Shown here piece after piece: positions 9,710-21,781 of a stretch of DNA of 64,000 bases; the stretch's first letter is position 1, and every line of letters starts with the position of its first letter. The position numbers and the translations under genes are program-made. The stretch spans positions 3,579 through 67,578 of the forward strand of contig JACPIO010000025.1 in the NCBI GenBank assembly GCA_016188075.1. The letters run 5' to 3'. The stretch comes from Candidatus Wolfebacteria bacterium (GTDB taxonomy: Bacteria > Patescibacteriota > Minisyncoccia > UBA6257 > UBA9933). Below the pieces are notes generated by a model. That model was not told the DNA's origin. It worked only from the letters and a program-made list of their open reading frames with translations, and made no database searches.

Positions 9710-11395
9710 ATGACAGGGAATTGGAGAGTGGCGAGTTTAATTATCATCTTTAGCCTTATCTATTCTTTTTTAATTTTTAATATTTACAATCTCCAGTTCG
9801 AAAAGAGAGTTTACTATTTGAGTTTGGCGGAAGCGCGGGATGAAGCCGGCGGAGTCTTGAAAGCCGAGCGGGGAAATATTTATTTTACCGATAAAAACGG
9901 CACTGCCATTCAGGCGGTTTTGAACAAAGAATATCCGATAATTTACGCCGTCCCCGCTGAAGTTCAGAGAAACGCCGATCAACGCGGATTCGGAACGCGG
10001 ATTTACGCGGAGCAATTAGAAACGATATTGGGTATCTCTGCTTCCGAATTAGAAAAAAAATTAGTTAAACCGAATGACGAATATGAACTTCTTGTCGAGA
10101 AAGCAACCGCCGAGCAGGTGGCGGCGATGAAGAGGTTGGATATTAAGGGTATCTATGTCAAAAATGAATTGCTTCGATTTTATCCCTTTGGCGATTTGGC
10201 GGCGCATCTTTTGGGTTTTGTTTCGCCGGCGAGCGACAAAGAAGACTCGCCTTCCGGGGAGGCGGAGTTTGGTCGGTACGGAGTCGAACTTTATTTTAAT
10301 AAGTTTTTAGCCGGACAGAACGGAACGCTTAAGGACGATAAACTGATTGAATCCGAAAAAGGAAAAGATTTGTTTTTGACGATTGATCGGAGTATCCAAT
10401 CCGAAGCCGAAGAAATTCTGAAAAATTTGGTTCAAGAAAAAGAAGCGGAGGCAGGGACGGTCATCGTCGAAGAGCCGAAAACCGGGAAAATTTTGGCCAT
10501 GGCTAATTTTCCCAATTTTGATCCAAATAATTATTCCGGATTTGGGGTGGGTAAATTTTTAAATCCGGCCACGGAGGCGGTTTACGAACCGGGTTCGATT
10601 TTTAAGATATTCACGATGGCCGCCGGCATTGACAGCGGGAAAATTACGCCGGAGACGGAATACACGGATACCGGCAGCGTTACTTTTAACGGGAAAACAA
10701 TAAAAAACTGGGATTTGAAAGCGCACGGCAGGCAAACCATGACCGGCGTGATTGAGCAATCCATAAACACCGGCGCGGTTTTTGCCGAAAGAAAAACCGG
10801 TCATGATATTTTTTATACTTACTTGAATAAATTCGGGTTAAGCGAGCCGACTAAAATTCAGTTGCCCGGAGAAGTGTCGGGCAATCTTAAGAATCTAAAA
10901 AACGGCCGCGACATTGATTTTGCAACGGCCTCTTTTGGCCAGGGAGTTGCCGTTACGCCGATTGAATTGGTGAACGCCGCCTCCGTCGTAGCCAATGGAG
11001 GGCTTCTTATGAGACCTTACATCTTGAAAAATGAAGAGCCGAAAGTAGTGCGCCGAGTTTTAAAAGAAGAGACCAGTCGAGCTGTTCGAGAAATGATGAC
11101 TTCGGCAGTTGTAAAAAACAAATTGGCGGCCATTCCCAATTATAACGTGGCTGGGAAAACCGGAACCGCTTTTGTGCCGGATTTCAAACGCGGCGGATAT
11201 ACCGATGAAGTTATAAACACCTACATTGGTTTTGCTCCGGCTTCGGATCCCCGTTTTATAATTTCCGTAAAGTTGGAAAAGCCGGCCGGTAGTCCTTTGG
11301 CTGGCCAGACCGTGGTGCCGGCTTTCCGGGCGCTCGCCGAATTTATTTTGAATTACTACAATATACCGCCGGATAAATTAGACCAACATCAATGA
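9710..11395 (+). CDS. ftsI: peptidoglycan transpeptidase FtsI / PBP
   Basis: 561 aa; SxxK (GSIFKIF), SxN (SINTGAV) and KTG(T) motifs. Confidence 0.85.
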   Translation: MTGNWRVASLIIIFSLIYSFLIFNIYNLQFEKRVYYLSLAEARDEAGGVLKAERGNIYFTDKNGTAIQAVLNKEYPIIYAVPAEVQRNADQRGFGTRIYAEQLETILGISASELEKKLVKPNDEYELLVEKATAEQVAAMKRLDIKGIYVKNELLRFYPFGDLAAHLLGFVSPASDKEDSPSGEAEFGRYGVELYFNKFLAGQNGTLKDDKLIESEKGKDLFLTIDRSIQSEAEEILKNLVQEKEAEAGTVIVEEPKTGKILAMANFPNFDPNNYSGFGVGKFLNPATEAVYEPGSIFKIFTMAAGIDSGKITPETEYTDTGSVTFNGKTIKNWDLKAHGRQTMTGVIEQSINTGAVFAERKTGHDIFYTYLNKFGLSEPTKIQLPGEVSGNLKNLKNGRDIDFATASFGQGVAVTPIELVNAASVVANGGLLMRPYILKNEEPKVVRRVLKEETSRAVREMMTSAVVKNKLAAIPNYNVAGKTGTAFVPDFKRGGYTDEVINTYIGFAPASDPRFIISVKLEKPAGSPLAGQTVVPAFRALAEFILNYYNIPPDKLDQHQ

Positions 11396-12637
11396 ACTGG
11401 TTTTTGAATAAATTGGCAAGGATTACGGTTTGGCGTTTTGAGCCGAAGATTATTGCTGTTACCGGAAGTGTCGGCAAAACCGCGACCGTGGAGAAGATCG
11501 AAGCGGTTTTGAAGCACCCGGTTTTTTTGTCAGAGAGAGATAATCGCGGTGCCACTCGCGCTCTTGGGCGATTGGCGCGATGAAGATTTAGGGCTCTTAA
11601 CTTTTAACGACTTGCCCGTCTCCCAAAAAATTAAAAAAATATTTTTTTGGACTAAGGTGATTTTAACGCCAATCATTAAATTGTTTTTTCGGCTTCGAAA
11701 AAAACATCAAGAGATTTTGATTCTCGAATACGGACTTCAGAAAAACTTGAAGATAAGAGATTTTTTGGAAATGGCCAAACCCGATATCGGAGTAGTGACG
11801 GCTGTTGGCGATATTCCGGCGCATGTCGAATTTTGGAGCGGCCCTTGGGCAGTCGCCCGAGAAAAGTCAAAAGTGGTTGAATGCCTCGACTCCGATGGTT
11901 TTGCCGTGTTGAATTTTGATGACGAGGCGGTTTTGGAGATGAAAAAGCGAACAAGGGCTAGAATCATTACTTTTGGTTTTGGCCCAGGGGCGGATGTAAG
12001 AATTATGAATTTTGAAAATCAATTCGAGAATCCCGAGTCCTACGGAATCAATTTTAAGATTGGCTACGGCGGGAGCGTGGTGCCGGTCAAGCTTCGTAAT
12101 GTTTTCGGCAAGGCCGAAGCGTATGCCGCCTCCGCGGCAGTTTGCATTGGTTTGATTTTTGATTTGAACTTGGTTGAAATTGCCGAAGCCTTGCAAAGTT
12201 CGCATTCCCTTTATTCCGGCAAGAGGATTTTAAAAGGAGTCAAAGAAACGGTGATTATTGAAGATTTGAGCGATGTTTCGCCTTTGTCAATGGATGAAGC
12301 CATTCATGTTTTGGGAGAATTTAGAGACCGAAGGAAAATCGCGGTTTTGGGAGATATGCTTGATTTGGGTAAGTGGAGCATTGAAGCTCACGAAGCCATC
12401 GGCCGGCTCACGTCCACGACCGTTGATCTTTTGTTTACGGTCGGGCCCCGGGGAAAATTAATAGCCGAGGGAGCCCGAGAAGGGGGTCTATTCAAAAATA
12501 AAATTTTAAGCTACGATACTTCGGTCGAGGCTGGAAGAAAACTTCAAGATTTATTAAAGAAAGGGGACGCGGTTTTGATAACCGGAGCCAGAGAGTTGAG
12601 AATGGGAGAGGTGGTGGAAGAAGTAAAAAGTAATTAG
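11392..12637 (+). CDS. murF: Mur ligase, MurF-like, interrupted by a frameshift at a T7 homopolymer (11522-11528)
   Basis: ORF 11392-11583 carries the P-loop TGSVGKTAT; reading continues in another frame from about 11511 (…EIIAVPLALL… then Mur middle/C-terminal domains, LGDMLDLG); the two frames overlap across the T7 run. Confidence 0.65.
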
Positions 12638-12660
12638 TAATTGGTAATTAGGATTAATTA
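12631..12660. repeat. 8-bp periodic AT-rich array (taattagtaattggtaattaggattaatta)
   Basis: related arrays at 59908-59970 and, reverse-complemented, at 23831-23855. Confidence 0.5.
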
Positions 12661-12712
12661 CTATGGCGCTTTCGTCTAGTGGTCAAGTCCCGATGTAGTC
12701 AAAAATTTATGC

Positions 12713-12785
12713 GCCGCCATCGTCTAGTGGCCTAGGACACTAGGTTCTCATCCTAGAAACCGGGGTTCGATTCCCCGTGGCGGTA
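12713..12785 (+). tRNA. tRNA-Glu (anticodon CUC)
   Basis: cloverleaf: acceptor gccgcca/tggcggt, D-arm tcgtctagtggcctaggac, anticodon loop ttCTCat, T-arm cgggg-ttcgatt-ccccg; matches bacterial tRNA-Glu. Confidence 0.85.
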
Positions 12786-12845
12786 CATAAATTTTTGATA
12801 CTACATCGAGGATCCTCGATACGACATCAAAATTAAAATTTTGGT

Positions 12846-12905
12846 CGTATCGGGAGACATCACGTTCTCAACGTGGGGACCCGGGTTCAAATCCCGGTGA
12901 GAGCA
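12846..12905 (+). other. 5'-truncated tRNA-like sequence (D-arm onward, anticodon loop ttCTCaa, good T-arm and 3' acceptor tgagagc-a) lacking a matching 5' acceptor strand
   Basis: well-formed anticodon and T arms but nothing adjacent pairs with the 3' acceptor; a separate tRNA 5'-fragment-like sequence (gcgctttcgtctagtggtcaag) lies at 12665-12690. Confidence 0.4.
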
Positions 12906-13002
12906 CAAATTTTTATTACAGTTGATTTCCGTTTTTTATTTTGCTACTTTTAGGCAGGCGGTTTTGGCCGGATTTTTTAGTTTTTAATTTTGTGTTTCCA
13001 AT

Positions 13003-13170
13003 AGCGTCGCTTGCTCGCCGAGCCCCCATCCCGTGCGGCAACTCGTGGACCCAGCCGGAGCTCGGTCTCGCCGAAGGCGAGTCCGGCTGGGGAGCGGTAG
13101 GGACGGCGAGCCGCTGGAGCGAGCCGAGCCCGGTGCCGTCAGGGATGCGGGGCTCGGCGCCAGGCCCACT
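13003..13170 (+). ncRNA. GC-rich, highly structured ~170-nt element upstream of atpB (candidate small RNA or cis-regulatory leader)
   Basis: GC island in an AT-leaning region; long-range closing helix cgccgagcccccatccc / gggatgcggggctcggcg plus internal hairpins; ORFs here overlap on both strands and read as nonsense. Confidence 0.45.
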
Positions 13171-13191
13171 TAGTCAAACATTACATTAGCT

Positions 13192-13935
13192 ATGTCCGAA
13201 ATTTCCATTAAAGCCGAAGAAATTTTTCAAATCAGCGGTTGGCCAGTAACTAACGCGGTGCTTTTATCGGCGCTTGCCGTTTTGGTTATTCTCGGCGCCT
13301 CCCTTCTTTTGCGGGGGAAGCTGTCGCTTTTACCCGGAAAGTTTCAGCTGATTTTCGAATTTTTGATTGAAGAAATTTTAAAGCTAATGGATGCGGTTTT
13401 GGGTTCGCGCCGGCTTTCCTTAAAATATCTGCCGTTTGTTGCCACGATCTTTTTATTTATTTTGACATCCAACTGGCTTGGACTTTTGCCGGTGATCGGG
13501 CCAGTTGGAATTAAGACCGCGCATTCGAATCCCGGCCTTGTGCCGCTTTTCCGATCGCCGGCGAGCGATTTGAATTTTACCATTGCTTTGGCTGTGATCT
13601 CGGTTTTGTCCGTGAACTTTTTGGCGATCACTGCCTTGGGTTTTAAAAAACATTTTTCCAAATTTTTTACTTTTAGGGATCCCATTCTCTCTTTCACCGG
13701 CCTACTTGAATTTATTTCCGAGTTTGTTAAGATTATATCGTTCTCTTTTCGATTATTCGGAAATGTTTTTGCCGGGGAGGTGCTCCTCGTCATTGTCGGA
13801 TTTTTAGTGCCTTATTTCCTGCCCCTGCCTTTTATTTTTCTGGAAATCTTTGTCGGGTTTATCCAGGCGTTCATTTTTTCGATGTTGACACTGGTTTTCA
13901 TTGGAATGGCGACCAACGAAGAACCGGCTCACTAA
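13192..13935 (+). CDS. atpB: F0F1 ATP synthase subunit a
   Basis: 247 aa polytopic membrane protein at the head of the atp operon. Confidence 0.85.
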   Translation: MSEISIKAEEIFQISGWPVTNAVLLSALAVLVILGASLLLRGKLSLLPGKFQLIFEFLIEEILKLMDAVLGSRRLSLKYLPFVATIFLFILTSNWLGLLPVIGPVGIKTAHSNPGLVPLFRSPASDLNFTIALAVISVLSVNFLAITALGFKKHFSKFFTFRDPILSFTGLLEFISEFVKIISFSFRLFGNVFAGEVLLVIVGFLVPYFLPLPFIFLEIFVGFIQAFIFSMLTLVFIGMATNEEPAH

Positions 13936-13965
13936 AGGTCAAAATAGTAAAATTAAATAATATAA

Positions 13966-14205
<240 letters not shown>

Positions 14206-14222
14206 GGAGTAATCGTTAATAT

Positions 14223-14729
14223 ATGAAGGGAATTTTGGATCAGTTGGGGGTCAATTGGCGGCTCCTTTTAACGCAAGGAGTCAATTTTTTTATTTTGCTC
14301 GCGGTTCTTACTTTTTTGGCGTATCGGCCTCTTATTCGAATAATGGAAGAGCGCCGAAAAAAAATTGAGCTTGGATTAAAAGCCGGGGAAGAAGGGGAAA
14401 AACGGTTAAAACACATCGAAGAATTGAAAGCCGAAAAACTGGCCCAAGCCGAAAGATCCAGCTTGAGCCTTATTTCCCGGGCCGAAGAAAAAGCCAAAAA
14501 AGAAGCCGGGGTGATTGTCAAAAATTCCGAAGCCAAAGCCAAGACGATTCTGGAAGAGGCTGTGGATTTAGCCCAAAGAAAAAAAATGGAAGAATTGGAA
14601 AATTTGACTGCCGAGGCCAAAAATATTATAAAGTCGGCCATCGTGAAAACTGTCCAGCTTGATCCGCGTTTGATTGACGAAGCGCTAATTAGTCGGGCAG
14701 TGGAGACGATTAAAAAAGAACGAGTATGA
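14223..14729 (+). CDS. atpF: F0F1 ATP synthase subunit b
   Basis: 168 aa; N-terminal TM then charged coiled coil. Confidence 0.8.
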   Translation: MKGILDQLGVNWRLLLTQGVNFFILLAVLTFLAYRPLIRIMEERRKKIELGLKAGEEGEKRLKHIEELKAEKLAQAERSSLSLISRAEEKAKKEAGVIVKNSEAKAKTILEEAVDLAQRKKMEELENLTAEAKNIIKSAIVKTVQLDPRLIDEALISRAVETIKKERV

Positions 14730-15118
14730 AATACCGCTCCGATTTTTACGCAAAAGCCCTTTTTGCGGCAACGGAAAAAAATCCGGAAGAAACGGAAAAT
14801 ATCATTCGGCGATTTTTCCGTCTACTTAAGAAAACCGGAGATATCAGTCAGTCTCGAAAAATTTTAGAATCGGTGGAAAAATTGGCAGTTAAAAAATCGG
14901 GTGACCGATGGGTAAAAATTGAATACAGCCGGTCAATGGATAAAAGGATGGAATCGAACATCAATAATTATTTTGGCAGCGGTTATCACGTTGAAAATGT
15001 TATCAATCCTTTGCTTATCGCCGGAGTTCGGATCACGATTGATGACGAAGAAGAATTGGATATTTCGCTTGCGAAAAAATTAAGGAAAATGTTTTCCACC
15101 GCTATCCACGAGTATTAA
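14726..15118 (+). CDS. atpH: F0F1 ATP synthase subunit delta (short form)
   Basis: 130 aa; C-terminal OSCP-like motif INPLLIAGVRITIDD; operon position. Confidence 0.65.
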   Translation: MKYRSDFYAKALFAATEKNPEETENIIRRFFRLLKKTGDISQSRKILESVEKLAVKKSGDRWVKIEYSRSMDKRMESNINNYFGSGYHVENVINPLLIAGVRITIDDEEELDISLAKKLRKMFSTAIHEY

Positions 15119-15140
15119 CGAGTGGCTATAGCGGTGAGAA

Positions 15141-15252
15141 CCCAGCACATATCTCACCCTAAGACGTGGTTATACCACCTAAGGAAGGCGATAGCCGACT
15201 TCGTCTACCAGAAGAGGTAATACCCCAAGCAGTGATCGAGATATGTGCTGGG
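15141..15252. mobile_element. ~110-bp element with perfect 15-bp terminal inverted repeats (cccagcacatatctc / gagatatgtgctggg) between atpH and atpA
   Basis: TIRs at 15141-15155 and 15238-15252; TIR sequence related to the 7244-7444 element (shared cacat(a)tctc core). Confidence 0.5.
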
Positions 15253-15315
15253 TGCTCAAATTTATAATTAAATTTATTTAAGGTAAAAAAATATAGAAAT
15301 TTAAATAAATTTGGC

Positions 15316-16851
15316 ATGGCTTTCGAAATTGTCGAAAAACTGAAAAGGGAAATTGAATCTTTTCGGGATGAATCAAAGTGGGAAAGAGTTGGAGAAGTGA
15401 CCGAGGCAGGCGATGGCATTGTTAAGATTTCCGGCCTTCGGAATGCTTTAAGTCAGGAAATCCTTTTGATTGAAACAGCGAAGGGCGAGGCAATCGCCTT
15501 GGCCGTGAACCTCGAGGAAAATTTTATCGGCGCCATTATTTTGGGAGAAGGAGAATCGGTTAAAGTTGGTGATCGGGTTCGCCAGACTGGCCGAGTACTT
15601 TCAATTAAAGCAGGAGATGAACTGATTGGAAGAGTCGTTAATCCTTTGGGCGAACCGCTTGACGGCAAGGGCGTAATTTTTAGAGATAGTCAAAAAGTCA
15701 AAGAATATCCGCTGGAAAAAACCGCGCCGAACGTTCTTCAAAGAGAACCGGTAAAAACGCCGCTCCATACCGGTGTTAAATCTATTGACGCGATGATTCC
15801 GATCGGCCGGGGTCAGCGCGAGCTTTTAATCGGCGATCGGCAAACCGGAAAAACCGCTCTGGCCATTGATACGATTTTAAATCAAAAACAGGATTCGGCC
15901 CGGCATCAGGTAATCTGTATTTACGTGGCCATCGGACAGAAAAATTCCAAAATCGCGAAAATCCTGAAATTACTGGAAGAGTCAGAAGCTTTGAGATATT
16001 CCATCGTTGTTTCGGCCCCGGCTTCTTCTCCGGCCAGCCTCCAGTATCTCGCGCCTTTCGCCGGCTGCGCCATCGGAGAATATTTTATGGATCAGGGGAA
16101 AGACGCTTTGGTTATCTATGACGATCTTGTGAAACACGCCGATGCCTATCGCGAGTTATCTTTGCTTTTGCGCCGGCCGCCGGGACGCGAGGCTTATCCC
16201 GGTGATATTTTTTATCTTCATTCGCGCTTGCTCGAACGCGCCGCCAAGCTGAATAAAGATTACGGCGGCGGCTCGCTCACGGCTATTCCCATAATCGAAA
16301 CCAAACTCGGCGATGTTTCAGCCTATATTCCCACAAACGTTATCTCTATTACTGACGGCCAGATTTATTTGGAATCAAGTCTTTTTTACCAAGGTATTCG
16401 TCCGGCGGTGAACGTCGGTTTATCGGTTTCTCGAGTGGGTTCTTCGGCTCAGACCAAAGCAATGAAAAAAGTGGCGAGCCGTTTGCGGCTCGAACTCGCC
16501 CAATTTCGGGAACTCGCGGCTTTTGTGCAATTTGCTTCGGATTTGGACGAAGCGACTCGTCAAAAAATTCGGCGCGGCGAACTTTTGACGGAAATTTTAA
16601 AGCAAGGCGACGGCGAACCGATTCCTTTCGAAAAACAAGTCGCGATACTTTACGCGGCCCTTAACGGTTTTTTAGACGACGTTGAATTGCAGAAAATGAA
16701 AGAATTTGAAAATAAATTCATTGATTATTTGGAAAAACGTCACGATGAAGATATTTTGGAGTCAATCCGCGAAAGCGGAGAACTCTTGAAAGAAGTCGAA
16801 GACAATCTAAAATCAGCCATATTGGCGTTCAAGAACGCATTTACCCTATAA
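15316..16851 (+). CDS. atpA: F0F1 ATP synthase subunit alpha
   Basis: 511 aa; Walker A GDRQTGKT. Confidence 0.9.
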
Positions 16852-16852
16852 A

Positions 16853-17764
16853 ATGGAATCTCTGCAGTCGTTAAAATCCCGTCTTCGGGCGGTAAAAAAT
16901 ATCGGGCAGATTACGAAAGCAATGGAAGTGGTCTCTGCCACCAAAATGCGGAGAGCGCAGGAGGCGGCGCTAAATTCCCGGCCGTATGCCTTTGAGGCCC
17001 TGCGTCTTTTGGATAAAGTGAGTCGAGTTTTTAAGAATGGGGCAATCGTCCCGCTTGGTGAGAGCCGTCCCGTTAAGGCAACGCTTGTTATCGTTGTTTC
17101 TTCGGATCGCGGATTGGCCGGCTCCTTTAATACGCAGATTTTCCGAATAATAGATAATTTTACGGCAGCGGATTTTTTTATAACTGTCGGTAAAAAAGCC
17201 GACCGATTTTGTTCCGGAAGGGGATTTAAAGTGATCGAGAGATTTTCCGGTTGGGGCGATTATGCCGAACCGCGTGAATGCGATCCGTTGGCTTCCGCGG
17301 TCATTGACGGTTTTTTGCGAAAGAAATGGGACAGGGCGATCGCGATATCAACGCATTTTCGCACAACCCTGAAGCAGGAAGTTTTGGTTCGCCAGATTTT
17401 ACCGGTTGATTTCGAAAAAATCCGGGAAACCGCGAGGGAGCTAGTTCCGGAAAGCGGTCGCTGGGCGGAGTTGAGAAAAAATATGGCTGACGACGCTAAC
17501 CATGACAATGACTATATTTTTGAACCGTCGCCATCCGAAGCGTTAAGCGCGCTTGTGCCGCATTTGGTTAGAATGCAAATTTATCATTTAATTTTAGAAG
17601 CTAACGCTTCGGAGCATTCGGCCCGGATGGTGGCGATGAAAAGCGCTTCGGATAACGCCGAAGAACTTTCCGGGGAAATCACTCTTGATTACAACAAGGC
17701 GCGGCAAGCGGGCATCACCAAAGAAATAATCGAAATAGTCGGAACGCAGACTGCGATGACATAA
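16853..17764 (+). CDS. atpG: F0F1 ATP synthase subunit gamma
   Basis: 303 aa; operon position; conserved C-terminal helix. Confidence 0.85.
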   Translation: MESLQSLKSRLRAVKNIGQITKAMEVVSATKMRRAQEAALNSRPYAFEALRLLDKVSRVFKNGAIVPLGESRPVKATLVIVVSSDRGLAGSFNTQIFRIIDNFTAADFFITVGKKADRFCSGRGFKVIERFSGWGDYAEPRECDPLASAVIDGFLRKKWDRAIAISTHFRTTLKQEVLVRQILPVDFEKIRETARELVPESGRWAELRKNMADDANHDNDYIFEPSPSEALSALVPHLVRMQIYHLILEANASEHSARMVAMKSASDNAEELSGEITLDYNKARQAGITKEIIEIVGTQTAMT

Positions 17765-17787
17765 ATTAACCAACAACCAACAACTAA

Positions 17788-19206
<1,419 letters not shown>

Positions 19207-19214
19207 CGTGAAAT

Positions 19215-19454
19215 ATGAATCTAAAAATTATTTCTCTAAAGGGAGCGCAATTTGAAGGCGAGGTGGTCGGTTTCAATGTTAAAACCGCGGCTGGGGAAAT
19301 TACGATTTTGGATCATCATCGGCCGATTATTTCCTCCCTGATTTTGGGCGCGGCGGTCATCATCGGGAAAGACGAGAATCGTCAAGCAATGCCCATTAAG
19401 TCCGGTTTTTTAGAGATGGACAAAAAAAATAATTTAACCGTCCTTATTGATTGA
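19215..19454 (+). CDS. atpC: F0F1 ATP synthase subunit epsilon (N-terminal beta-sandwich domain only)
   Basis: 79 aa; operon position. Confidence 0.7.
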   Translation: MNLKIISLKGAQFEGEVVGFNVKTAAGEITILDHHRPIISSLILGAAVIIGKDENRQAMPIKSGFLEMDKKNNLTVLID

Positions 19455-19644: not shown

Positions 19645-20097
19645 ATGGAGAGGATGATTGCGAAGATAATAAGCAGAGATCACTACCGAGCTGATGCTTG
19701 CGTTGTTTGGTGTTTTGACGATCGGTTTGCTGGCTTGCTTGAGGATTTTATAAAAGCGAAAAACTTTAGGCGTGTGGATTTGATAAAAGTCGCGGGCGGA
19801 GCAAAAGATCTTGTTGGTTTTTCGGATACTATCACATGTGATAGTAAGCAGAGTTATCTTTTAGATCAGATTGCGAAGTCTATAAAATTACATCAAACGC
19901 CTTTAGTGATTTTAATGGTGCATGCGGATTGCGGGGCGTATGGGAAAAAATTCGAGACCGTTCTCGAAGAACAGGAATTTTATAGAGGAGAGTTAAATAA
20001 AGCAGAGGCGGTGGTTAGAAAATTTTTGGCGGAAAATCATTTAGAGGCGCGAATCGAAAAATATTTCGCGGATTTTGAAGGATTAAATAAAGTTTAA
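19645..20097 (+). CDS. hypothetical protein with beta-carbonic-anhydrase-like CxDxR / HxxC motifs
   Basis: 150 aa; CFDDR ... HADCG. Confidence 0.35.
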   Translation: MERMIAKIISRDHYRADACVVWCFDDRFAGLLEDFIKAKNFRRVDLIKVAGGAKDLVGFSDTITCDSKQSYLLDQIAKSIKLHQTPLVILMVHADCGAYGKKFETVLEEQEFYRGELNKAEAVVRKFLAENHLEARIEKYFADFEGLNKV

Positions 20098-20100
20098 TCT

Positions 20101-20445
20101 ATGATTCCCAGAAACGTTATCAAAGATTTAAAACTGCTCGCTTCATTCGGCGCCGCCATTTTCGCCTTATTTTTAGGATTCGTTTTCGTTTACATTCATT
20201 TCGCCGACTTTAATGGTTTGGTGATCATTCATTTCGATTCACGCGAAGGCATTGATTTTCTGGGGAGCGTGAAAGACGTGTTCGGCATTTTGGCTTCGGC
20301 TTTTATTATGATTGTTGTCAATCTTTTTTTATCCAATTTTCTTTACTACCGCGAGCGGTTTTTGGCCTATGTTTTTGCTTTTGTTAGCTTGGCGCTCGCT
20401 ATCTTGATTTTAATCGCGATATCGGTTATTGTGTCAATTAATTGA
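20101..20445 (+). CDS. hypothetical membrane protein
   Basis: 114 aa; 3-4 predicted TM helices. Confidence 0.5.
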   Translation: MIPRNVIKDLKLLASFGAAIFALFLGFVFVYIHFADFNGLVIIHFDSREGIDFLGSVKDVFGILASAFIMIVVNLFLSNFLYYRERFLAYVFAFVSLALAILILIAISVIVSIN

Positions 20446-20924: not shown

Positions 20925-21580
20925 TGCTCCTTGAGTAAGTTGTAAAGAGTGTGCCGCAAACATGCACCATAGGGGATCGCGCTGGCACGTCAGTCGCGAG
21001 AGGTTCGAATCCTCATGCATGGGGTTTGCTGTCTCGGTGTGGTGATCGTGGAAGGAGCCCATGCGTAAGGCGCTTTCGAAGGGGAAAGGTCTTTTTCCCT
21101 CGCTAGAGCCGGATTGGGTCTTTAAACCACGAAGTCTCACATCGTCCGTTCCCTCCGCTGTCCCAGGAAACTGGGGAGATTAGAGGGGTAATAAGACAGT
21201 AGGCCTGCGGCACGCTACTAAAATATCCGGCGCAATCAATGTGCCGAGAGAAGTCCGCGCCGAGGTGGGTCGGCCGCTCGCGATGCCAGCAGGAAGTAGT
21301 AGCGGCAGTCGCTGCGGTTGCGGCGCCCGATCGAGAGCTTCGCGCTCTCCGAGGCGTCGATACGGTCCCGCGCGCGGGCACGCAGGAGTGGACCACCTTG
21401 CCTTCCAAAAAGGTGAGGTGCCTGCAGGGGACTAGATACCCCCACCGGCCAACGACGACGGCCGTACCGCCACAAGGGCGGGTCGGGCTGGCGTCCGGGC
21501 TTCTTCCGGCGCCTCCCATGCGTCTCACAGCACACCAAGGCCTGATGGTAGTTCACCCATCAGGCCCACCTTTTTTAACA
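20925..21580 (+). ncRNA. ~650-nt GC-rich highly structured RNA of unknown class, ending in tandem intrinsic terminators
   Basis: sharp GC island; overlapping Arg/Ala-rich nonsense ORFs on both strands; T-loop-like GGTTCGAATCC at 21002-21012 followed by helix atgcatggg/cccatgcgt and TTTCGAAGGGG (permuted-tmRNA-like layout but no G3:U70); terminators at 21538-21576 and 21589-21612. Confidence 0.45.
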
Positions 21581-21781
21581 GTTGATTTGCCCCTCACGGG
21601 CGTTTTTTATTTTCGTTTAGATTTCGAGGTTGATTTTTCGATATCGTACCCCCACACCAAATGTGGATAATAATTTGGCGTTGGGCAGACTGGATTCAAA
21701 CTTTCTCAATTTAATGGGTTTATCAGGCAAATTTTAAATTTCTACTAAACCAATCCACATTTGGTGTGGGGGTAAAAGATT

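What the first reader, a model, noticed from the sequence alone, without database searches (positions are those of the whole stretch)
13003..13170. Compact GC-rich structured element immediately upstream of the ATP synthase operon
This approximately 170-nt GC island directly precedes atpB. It has a long-range closing helix (cgccgagcccccatccc / gggatgcggggctcggcg) and at least two internal GC hairpins (cccagccgga...tccggctggg; gagcgg...ccgctg). The ORFs called here overlap on both strands and look spurious. It is a candidate cis-regulatory leader for the atp operon or an independent small RNA of about 6S size.
Basis: seen in the sequence. Interest (0 to 1): 0.5.

Follow-up and report, generated by a model that had tools for sequence, protein, structure and literature searches.

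The report
Orphan GC-rich stem-loop upstream of atpB
A real, very stable, GC-rich folded element lies just before the ATP synthase genes of this candidate-phyla-radiation bacterium, but it is a one-off insertion at a genome rearrangement junction, not a conserved regulatory RNA or a 6S-type RNA.

Summary
Window 13009-13165 is a sharply bounded 157-nt island of 75.8% GC, between flanks of 32% and 35% GC. It folds into a 28-bp closing helix around a three-way junction (-103.8 kcal/mol, z = -3.9). It folds equally well on the minus strand.

No Rfam family matches, including 6S. No second copy exists in the window. The element is absent upstream of atpB in 21 related Parcubacteria loci, where the four closest have 37-120-nt intergenic regions. 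It is also absent downstream of tRNA-Glu in four murF-syntenic relatives. The only other copies are the same strain in two independent assemblies, so covariation cannot be tested.

Synteny shows that the atp operon plus one ORF (about 7.2 kb) was translocated between tRNA-Glu and ORF114-rplU in this lineage. The element sits at the left junction. It occupies the place of the -35 and spacer of the atpB promoter seen in the closest relatives, and a degenerate -10 remnant survives just after it.

Best reading: a lineage-specific palindromic junction insert, probably read through into atp mRNA. Any role in RNA processing or stability is inferred, not shown. Interest is low to moderate.

The parts
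13009..13165 (+). The whole element: a 157-nt, 75.8% GC nested palindrome that folds as an autonomous domain.
   Evidence: The same fold is kept inside the 335-nt context 12906-13240.
13009..13040 (+). 5' strand of closing helix P1. Segments are 13009-13, 13016-26, 13027-32 and 13035-40.
   Evidence: 5+11+6+6 bp, pairing probabilities 0.91-1.0.
13134..13165 (+). 3' strand of closing helix P1. It covers the position (13151-13156, GGCTCG) where relatives have the atpB -35 hexamer.
13044..13096 (+). Arm P2. It has a 3-bp base (13044-46 / 13094-96), a 10-bp helix (13050-59 / 13082-91), a 7-nt internal loop GCUCGGU (13060-66), and an apical 6-bp hairpin with a GAA loop (13067-81).
   Evidence: SNP T13046C turns a G.U pair into G-C, and SNP A13075G lies in the apical loop.
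13100..13131 (+). Arm P3, an irregular GC hairpin.
13017..13158 (.). Four copies of a 7-mer in alternating orientation: GCCGAGC at 13017 and 13123, and GCTCGG[CT] at 13060 and 13152.
   Evidence: 4 observed, p = 2e-4 in 20,000 shuffles of the element. The copy at 13060-66 is unpaired in the minimum-energy fold and is complementary to 13123-29, which allows a tertiary or alternative pairing (inference).
13171..13179 (+). TAGTCAAAC, a remnant of the ancestral atpB -10 region. The hexamer is TCAAAC where relatives have TAAACT.
   Evidence: L003, L022 and L024 have TTGAAA-17-TAGTAAACT-12 nt-start. The window has TAGT in the same register (-21 to -18) but has lost the A2 and T6 positions of the hexamer.
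12922..12950 (+). Weak promoter-like site TTGATT-17-TACTTT in the AT-rich spacer upstream of the element.
   Evidence: Read from the sequence. It is below the threshold of the consensus scan, so it is inferred only.
12575..12603 (+). Promoter-like site TTGATA-17-GAGAAT upstream of the tRNA-Glu locus. It is a candidate source of read-through transcription into the element and the atp genes.
   Evidence: the only plus-strand site in 12400-13400 that passes the scan (9 of 12 matches).
12664..12905 (+). Rearranged tRNA-Glu(CTC) locus immediately upstream. An intact tRNA (12713-12786) sits on a roughly 24-bp leader/trailer stalk between a 5' tRNA fragment and a 3' near-complete tRNA fragment.
13192..19454 (+). 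atpBEFHAGDC operon, the translocated block whose left junction the element occupies. ORF150 (19645-20097) belongs to the same block.
   Evidence: For synteny.

Best explanation
The element is a single-copy, lineage-specific, GC-rich nested palindrome. It lies at the left junction of a roughly 7.2-kb rearrangement that placed the atp operon downstream of tRNA-Glu in this Wolfebacteria-like CPR genome. It occupies the place of the upstream half (-35 and spacer) of the ancestral atpB promoter. What follows is inferred. The atp genes are probably now transcribed through it from upstream, either from the tRNA promoter or from a weak site at 12922-12950. In that RNA the element folds on its own into a roughly -100 kcal/mol three-way junction closed by a 28-bp helix. 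It then sits between the tRNA precursor and the atp message. If it has an effect, the most likely one is as a processing or stability determinant. The long duplex could be an RNase III-type cleavage stalk, or a structural block protecting the 5' end of the atp mRNA that tRNA processing leaves behind. It is unlikely to be a ligand- or protein-sensing regulator. It may also be a neutral relic of foreign or mobile DNA. Shown: the element is real, has sharp boundaries, is single-copy in the window, is absent from all sampled relatives, sits at a junction, and occupies the -35 position. Inferred: co-transcription with atp and any role in processing or stability.
For: There is a sharp composition step of 32% / 75.8% / 34.6% GC. 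The fold is an autonomous domain with z = -3.9. No other copy exists in the window. The element is absent from 21 atp loci of relatives, where the four closest have 37-120-nt intergenic regions upstream of atpB. It is also absent from 4 murF-tRNA-Glu loci. Relatives have the order murF-tRNA-Glu-ORF114-rplU-recR. The window has murF-tRNA-Glu-[element]-atp operon-ORF150-ORF114-rplU. None of 17 related atp loci has a tRNA directly upstream. The three loci sharing this promoter (L003, L022, L024; 70-76% AtpB identity) have TTGAAA-17-TAAACT-12 nt-start. The window keeps TAGT in register, has a degenerate hexamer, and has the P1 3' arm where the -35 should be. No plus-strand terminator is predicted between the tRNA promoter and atpB. 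Two of the 3 SNPs found in 2555 nt between strains fall inside the 157-nt element, and in the window strain both are A/T where the other two assemblies have G/C. This is compatible with weak sequence constraint.
Against: High GC and near-perfect pairing in a genome whose intergenic regions average 40% GC would not survive long without selection or a recent origin. A selected function therefore cannot be dismissed. Both SNPs are structure-compatible: one is a G.U to G-C change and one lies in a loop. No donor sequence, transposase, convincing target-site duplication or second copy was found, so the origin of the insert is unknown. The flanking repeat candidates CCAATAGCGTC (12998-13008) and CCACTTAGTC (13166-13175) match only with gaps. 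The nearest relatives are distant (AtpB 76% or less, MurF 57% or less), so the timing of the insertion is poorly bounded. The transcription start is not known.
Confidence: 0.5

Rival explanations
1. A new, lineage-restricted functional structured RNA. It would be either a cis-acting atp leader (protein-, ligand- or temperature-responsive) or a small RNA processed from the tRNA-atp transcript, kept GC-rich by selection for its fold.
For: It is an extreme GC island in an AT-rich intergenic context. This is the signature used by GC-IGR searches for structured RNAs (PMC6429828, PMC11109978, PMC8723152). It is a three-way junction with a 7-nt internal loop complementary to P3. Both strain SNPs keep the structure. 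It lies immediately upstream of an essential operon that has lost its -35.
Against: There is no homologue anywhere that could be searched, so there is no covariation. It is absent from every related atp and tRNA-Glu locus. It has no expression platform: no terminator, and the AU-rich start region forms only weak pairings and is not held in a stable helix. The fold is as good on the minus strand. SNP density is higher inside than outside. By the GC-IGR criteria it would be 'unnamed' or a low-ranking candidate.
Confidence: 0.25
2. One copy of a multi-copy miniature mobile element (MITE-, REPIN- or BIME-like), with other copies elsewhere in the genome outside the window.
For: It has terminal inverted repeats of about 25 nt and discrete boundaries. 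A 7-mer occurs four times in alternating orientation. It lies next to a rearranged tRNA locus. A second solitary palindrome with perfect 22-bp arms lies at 21647-21774.
Against: It is single-copy in 64 kb. There is no clear target-site duplication, and no transposase or RAYT-like gene was noticed nearby. Its GC content is foreign to the host genome. The REP-like family found with its arm sequence in metagenomes is unrelated beyond the 11-mer used in the search.
Confidence: 0.13
3. The element is not part of the atp mRNA. A promoter downstream of 13165 (remnant TCAAAC at 13174-79, or TACATT at 13182-87) drives a near-leaderless atpB. The palindrome then acts only at the DNA level or on upstream transcripts, for example as a barrier to read-through from the tRNA genes.
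For: Relatives have very short atpB 5' UTRs, with the -10 hexamer 9-12 nt before the start codon. The TAGT register is conserved.
Against: The remnant hexamer lacks the two most conserved -10 positions, and no -35-like hexamer lies at 16-18 nt spacing. The element has no U-tract on either strand.
Confidence: 0.08
4. It is the 6S RNA, or another known housekeeping RNA such as SRP, RNase P or tmRNA, of this organism.
For: Its size of about 160 nt and its long closing stem.
Against: No Rfam hit even at E <= 10 in a 700-nt search. The topology is a three-way junction with no central bubble. ARAGORN finds no tmRNA. It is not conserved in relatives.
Confidence: 0.02
5. It encodes a small protein, from one of the overlapping ORFs.
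For: An 82-codon ORF (12941-13189) ends 2 nt before the atpB ATG.
Against: There are no Pfam hits. No homologues were found, and the ORF itself was not called in public annotations. The minus-strand ORF matches only low-complexity repeats. Open frames are expected at this GC content. One of the two SNPs is non-synonymous (W to R) in that frame.
Confidence: 0.02

Closest known systems
Unnamed or low-ranking candidates from GC-IGR searches for structured RNAs (Breaker laboratory pipeline; PMC6429828, PMC11109978, PMC8723152)
   Same: It is a long intergenic region that is unusually GC-rich for an AT-rich genome, with a strong predicted fold and no annotation.
   Different: Those searches promote a motif only when several unique representatives show a consensus and covariation. 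Here there is one representative plus a same-strain copy, so it cannot be promoted.
RNase III processing stalks between co-transcribed RNAs (rRNA leader-trailer helices, phage T7 intercistronic R sites; my own knowledge)
   Same: It is a long, nearly perfect duplex (28 bp) between a stable-RNA gene cluster and downstream genes on one transcript. It is not followed by a U-tract.
   Different: No cleavage data exist. It is much more GC-rich and more branched than the T7 sites. It is not conserved in relatives, whereas rRNA stalks are.
5'-UTR stabiliser stem-loops (E. coli ompA leader, B. subtilis aprE and ermC leaders; my own knowledge)
   Same: It is a stable structure upstream of a highly expressed operon. 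It could protect an mRNA 5' end from 5'-end-dependent decay.
   Different: Known stabilisers are short hairpins at the extreme 5' end. Here the 5' end is unknown, and the element is a 157-nt three-way junction.
REP / BIME / REPIN and MITE-type palindromic repeats
   Same: It has terminal inverted repeats, short motifs in alternating orientation, an intergenic location and discrete boundaries.
   Different: It is single-copy in the 64 kb examined. It has no clear target-site duplication and no associated transposase, and its composition is foreign to the genome.
6S RNA (Rfam RF00013 and related families)
   Same: Its size and its long closing helix.
   Different: There is no covariance-model match, no central bubble, no conservation, and no own terminator.

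Membership tests
6S RNA | Match to the Rfam 6S covariance models | tested here: not met
   No hit at gathering score, and none at E <= 10 in a 701-nt search.
6S RNA | Rod-like fold with a large central bubble flanked by a closing stem and a terminal stem | tested here: not met
   The minimum-energy and centroid folds are a three-way junction: P1, P2 and P3.
6S RNA | Binding to sigma-70 RNA polymerase holoenzyme and pRNA synthesis | not testable with these tools
   This is a biochemical property.
Riboswitch / conserved cis-regulatory leader | Conserved upstream of orthologous genes in related genomes | tested here: not met
   It is absent from 21 related atpB loci. The four closest relatives have intergenic regions of 37-120 nt. 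No GC island, BLAST hit or covariance-model hit was found.
Riboswitch / conserved cis-regulatory leader | Covarying base pairs that support the fold | tested here: inconclusive
   Only same-strain copies exist. They differ by 2 SNPs, one a one-sided G.U to G-C change and one in a loop. There are no compensatory changes to count.
Riboswitch / conserved cis-regulatory leader | Expression platform: a terminator, or a helix that sequesters the start site | tested here: not met
   No terminator-like site lies on the plus strand in 12400-13400. The start region is AU-rich and only weakly paired.
REP / REPIN / MITE-type repeat | Multiple copies per genome | tested here: inconclusive
   It is single-copy in the 64-kb window. 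The rest of the genome was not available.
REP / REPIN / MITE-type repeat | Terminal inverted repeats | tested here: met
   P1 arms 13009-13040 and 13134-13165.
REP / REPIN / MITE-type repeat | Target-site duplication flanking the repeats | tested here: inconclusive
   CCAATAGCGTC (12998-13008) and CCACTTAGTC (13166-13175) abut the helix, but they match at 8 positions only after adding gaps.
REP-like family GGGAACGCCGAGCCCCAGCTCGGC (metagenome hits) | Shares the 19-24-nt hairpin unit beyond the 11-mer used as bait | tested here: not met
   No BLAST similarity at E < 0.01. Covariance-model hits of 30 bits or less rest on generic GC helices. For the units and flanks.
Intrinsic terminator | GC hairpin followed by a U-tract | tested here: not met
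   No T-run follows the helix on either strand.
Protein-coding gene (for example atpI/atpZ) | ORF with homologues or a domain match | tested here: not met

The most novel reading that the evidence does not exclude
After the atp operon was moved behind a tRNA gene and lost its own -35, this lineage acquired or evolved a dedicated GC-rich three-way-junction RNA. The RNA uncouples the atp message from the tRNA precursor, by RNase III-type cleavage or by acting as an exonuclease roadblock, and so sets ATP synthase expression. That would be a de novo, species-specific structured RNA module fixing the consequences of an operon translocation in a reduced CPR genome.
Probability: 0.15. Interest if true: 0.5.

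Novelty: new member of a known kind. Interest (0 to 1): 0.25.

Why it matters
If the ordinary reading is right, the finding should not be catalogued as an atp riboswitch, atp leader or 6S RNA. It then serves mainly as a marker of a lineage-specific operon translocation, and of promoter loss, in an uncultivated Parcubacteria genome. If the element is functional, it would be a rare example of a very young, species-restricted structured RNA tied to expression of an essential operon in a minimal genome. It would also show that GC-island screens pick up rearrangement junction inserts as well as conserved RNAs.

Tried and rejected
1. Known RNA families. The Rfam gathering scan of the whole window and E <= 10 scans of 12600-13300 gave only tRNAs and noise.

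2. A second copy in the window. This was tested by repeats, blastn and a covariance model; none was found.

3. Conservation upstream of atpB. One genome-contig scan gave 19 loci, and four closer relatives were fetched by exact-protein look-up. None has a GC island, a BLAST hit or a model hit.

4. Conservation on the tRNA side. Four murF-tRNA-Glu loci lack the element.

5. Pattern scans with the P1 arms and the P2 arms. The viral collection gave nothing related. The metagenome scan gave 82 hits. All are chance matches in high-GC DNA, or belong to an unrelated REP-like family.

6. Phage and plasmid collections. These gave no match, or a 46-nt chance match.

7. The spurious-ORF trick, used to find homologous DNA through called proteins. 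It gave nothing, or only low-complexity noise.

8. Coding potential. Pfam found nothing.

9. A shared upstream module. I tested whether the spacer before the element (12910-13008) is homologous to the sequence after the second GC island (21572-21646). Two short motifs are shared exactly, but the local alignment and nhmmer are not significant. The idea was dropped.

10. An alternative fold with two local hairpins. My constraint indexing was off, and the result (-46.6 kcal/mol) is not usable.

11. L025 has an unrelated 14-bp hairpin at the same distance from atpB (z = -2.3). This is an analogy only, with no homology.

Full report
**Observation**

- Window 13009-13165 (157 nt) is 75.8% GC. The 103 nt before it are 32% GC and the 26 nt after it are 34.6% GC.
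- It holds the most GC-rich 100-nt stretch of the 64-kb window, 0.78 against a mean of 0.444.
- Its intergenic region is the most GC-rich of 32.
- The quoted closing helix and the CCCAGCCGGA/UCCGGCUGGG hairpin are present.
- The minimum-energy fold is a 28-bp closing helix, P1, with segments 13009-13 / 13161-65, 13016-32 / 13142-59 and 13035-40 / 13134-39. It encloses a three-way junction with arms P2 (13044-13096) and P3 (13100-13131), and most pairing probabilities are near 1.
- Energy is -103.8 kcal/mol against -86.1 +/- 4.6 for dinucleotide shuffles (z = -3.87).
- The reverse strand folds almost as well (z = -3.81), and G.U pairs are few on both strands (3 and 2). The signal is therefore a nested palindrome that does not say which strand matters.
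- The fold survives in a 335-nt context.
- Two independent assemblies of the same strain carry the element with both junctions, so it is not a chimeric assembly.

**It is not a known RNA and not a gene**

Rfam 15 gives only tRNAs at gathering thresholds for the whole window. At E <= 10 in a 701-nt search there is nothing beyond noise, and no 6S, SRP, RNase P, tmRNA, riboswitch or ribozyme family appears. The three overlapping ORFs have no Pfam match. The plus-strand ORF has no homologue and was not even called in public annotations. The minus-strand ORF matches only long low-complexity proteins. At this base composition only 0.73 stop codons are expected in 52 codons, so open frames on both strands mean nothing.

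**Organism and relatives**

AtpB is identical to MBI2515205.1 from a 'Candidatus Wolfebacteria bacterium' MAG. The next closest AtpB is 76% identical and the next closest MurF is 57% identical, so no near relative is available.

I collected 19 atp loci from species-representative genomes, of which 17 include sequence upstream of a recognisable atpB start, and four more from the closest proteins.
- None has a GC island upstream of atpB.
- None matches the element by blastn or by a covariance model built from it (R1).
- The four closest have intergenic regions of only 37-120 nt.
- None of 17 loci has a tRNA next to atpB.

Pattern scans of the viral and metagenome collections with the helix arms returned chance matches in high-GC DNA. 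They also returned an unrelated REP-like family, GGGAACGCCGAGCCCCAGCTCGGC, often in tandem or inverted arrays. Neither has extended similarity to the element. The phage and plasmid collections gave nothing.

Covariation analysis is therefore impossible. The only variation is two SNPs between strains. T13046C changes G.U to G-C in the base of P2, and A13075G lies in the apical GAA loop. Both are compatible with the fold, but roughly half of all random changes would be. Two of the three SNPs in 2555 aligned bases lie within the 157 nt, and the third is synonymous in atpE. This argues against strong sequence constraint.

**The context explains the position**

Relatives found through MurF have the order mraZ-rsmH-ftsL-PBP-murF-tRNA-Glu(CTC)-ORF114-rplU-recR-divIC-...-tRNA-Gly(CCC). 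The window has the same frame, but with an extra block:
- murF (to 12637)
- the tRNA-Glu locus (12664-12905)
- the element (13009-13165)
- atpBEFHAGDC (13192-19454)
- ORF150 (19645-20097)
- ORF114 (20101-20445)
- rplU
- recR
- a divIC-like gene
- tRNA-Gly

So about 7.2 kb carrying the atp operon sits between tRNA-Glu and ORF114 only in this lineage, and the element is exactly at its left edge.

Three loci that share one promoter (L003, L022, L024; 70-76% AtpB identity) have a hydrolase gene followed by a clear promoter: TTGAAA, 17 nt, TAGTAAACT, 12 nt, start codon. The window keeps TAGT in the same register (13171-13174, positions -21 to -18). Its hexamer reads TCAAAC instead of TAAACT. The position of the -35 (13151-13156) is GGCTCG, inside the 3' arm of P1. 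The element thus occupies the place of the upstream half of the ancestral promoter.

The tRNA-Glu locus beside it is itself rearranged (see 'Noticed in passing'). This shows that the spot has a history of DNA insertion.

**How it most likely works**

- Shown: it is a discrete, single-copy, lineage-specific insert at a rearrangement junction, occupying the -35 position.
- Inferred: no plus-strand terminator is predicted between the tRNA promoter-like site (12575-12603) and atpB. No acceptable -35 lies in front of the remnant -10. The atp genes are therefore probably expressed by read-through from upstream, or from the weak TTGATT-17-TACTTT site at 12922-12950. The element would then be part of that RNA.
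- Inferred: in the RNA it forms a very stable, branched duplex between the tRNA precursor and the AU-rich, Shine-Dalgarno-less atpB start.
- Plausible effects are cleavage of the 28-bp duplex by an RNase III-type enzyme, or protection of the atp mRNA 5' end that tRNA processing leaves behind.
- A neutral relic of foreign DNA is equally compatible with the data.
- The four-fold, alternating 7-mer GCCGAGC / GCTCGG[CT] (13017, 13060, 13123, 13152; p = 2e-4) is unexplained. The copy at 13060-66 is the unpaired internal loop of P2 and could pair with 13123-29. It could equally reflect the repeat structure of a mobile element.

**Rivals**

- A young functional RNA remains possible (0.25). Such high GC and near-perfect pairing should decay in a genome whose intergenic DNA is 40% GC.
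- A multi-copy mobile element (0.13) cannot be excluded without the rest of the genome.
- A downstream promoter that leaves the element outside the mRNA (0.08) is possible, because relatives have near-leaderless atpB.
- 6S or another housekeeping RNA, and a coding function, are effectively excluded.

**Comparison with known systems**

By the published GC-IGR criteria (PMC11109978) this is an 'unnamed' or low-ranking candidate: one representative and no consensus. In function it most resembles intercistronic processing stalks or 5' stabiliser structures. In form it resembles solitary REP- or MITE-like palindromes. It meets the defining tests of none of these families (see the membership table).

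**Verdict**

The structure is real, the explanation is ordinary, and the function is unknown. It is not a conserved atp leader and not a 6S-like RNA. Interest is 0.25.

Noticed in passing
window 12664-12905: The tRNA-Glu locus is rearranged. An intact tRNA-Glu(CTC) (12713-12786, anticodon loop TTCTCAT) sits on a roughly 24-bp leader/trailer stalk (CGATGTAGTCAAAAATTTAT / ATAAATTTTTGATACTACATCG). On its 5' side is a tRNA 5' fragment (about 12664-12690). On its 3' side is a near-complete tRNA fragment (12842-12904, Rfam 31.8 bits, anticodon loop TTCTCAA as in relatives' tRNA-Glu). In the centroid fold, GCUUUC(G) at 12668-74 pairs with (U)GAGAGC at 12898-12904 like an acceptor stem, which makes it look like a tRNA nested inside a disrupted tRNA. 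The whole region folds with z = -8.7. Relatives have a single plain tRNA-Glu here.
   Followed up: partly
window 21100-21576 (+): A second GC island (up to 0.73 GC, about 470 nt) lies between rplU and recR. It has no credible ORF and folds with z = -3.5. It ends in a canonical intrinsic terminator (GGCCUGAUGG...CCAUCAGGCC followed by a U-run). It has no Rfam hit even at E <= 10. The rplU-recR gap is 25-36 nt in relatives against 938 nt here, so this too is lineage-specific. It is a candidate large unknown ncRNA. It contains GAGAGAAGUCCG, which is reminiscent of the RNase P CR-I motif, but no model match supports that.
   Followed up: partly
window 21647-21774: A solitary 128-nt palindromic element with perfect 22-bp arms (TACCCCCACACCAAATGTGGAT / ATCCACATTTGGTGTGGGGGTA) and an AT-rich 84-nt centre. 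TA could be either part of the arms or a TA duplication. It looks MITE-like. Rfam matches only generic miRNA-precursor hairpins.
   Followed up: partly
window 12918-12942 and 21578-21613: The exact motifs ACAGTTGATTT and CGTTTTTTATTTT occur in the same order just after both structured-RNA regions (the tRNA locus and the second GC island). The wider similarity is not significant by local alignment or nhmmer. They may be a shared terminator or promoter-type signal.
   Followed up: yes
window 11392-12637: MurF appears to be split or N-terminally shortened. A 63-codon ORF (11392-11583) overlaps the 362-codon ORF (11549-12637), whereas relatives encode a single protein of 407-474 residues. This could be a frameshift or a sequencing error.
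   Followed up: no
loci L031-L112 (metagenome contigs), e.g. L036 197-594, L044, L061: A widespread REP-like repeat, CC(Y)GGGA(R)CGCCGAGCCCCAGCTCGGC, occurs in genomes of 53-67% GC. It appears as inverted doublets about 100-150 nt apart and as tandem arrays (65-nt period in L036 and L108). It was found by accident with the P1-arm pattern and is unrelated to the window element.
   Followed up: partly
window 13171, 13945, 12696 and others: The octamer TAGTMAAA is about two-fold enriched (11 against 4.9 expected). It sits 17-30 nt upstream of tRNA-Glu, atpB and atpE. Relatives have TAGTAAACT as the atpB -10 region, so it is possibly an extended -10-type promoter element of this clade. Start codons here lack Shine-Dalgarno sequences.
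   Followed up: partly
L025 2166-2223: A relative with 73% AtpB identity has an unrelated 14-bp long-range hairpin that ends 29 nt before its atpB start, with the -35 (TTGCTA) inside the 3' arm. It is in an analogous position to the window element, but there is no sequence similarity.
   Followed up: partly
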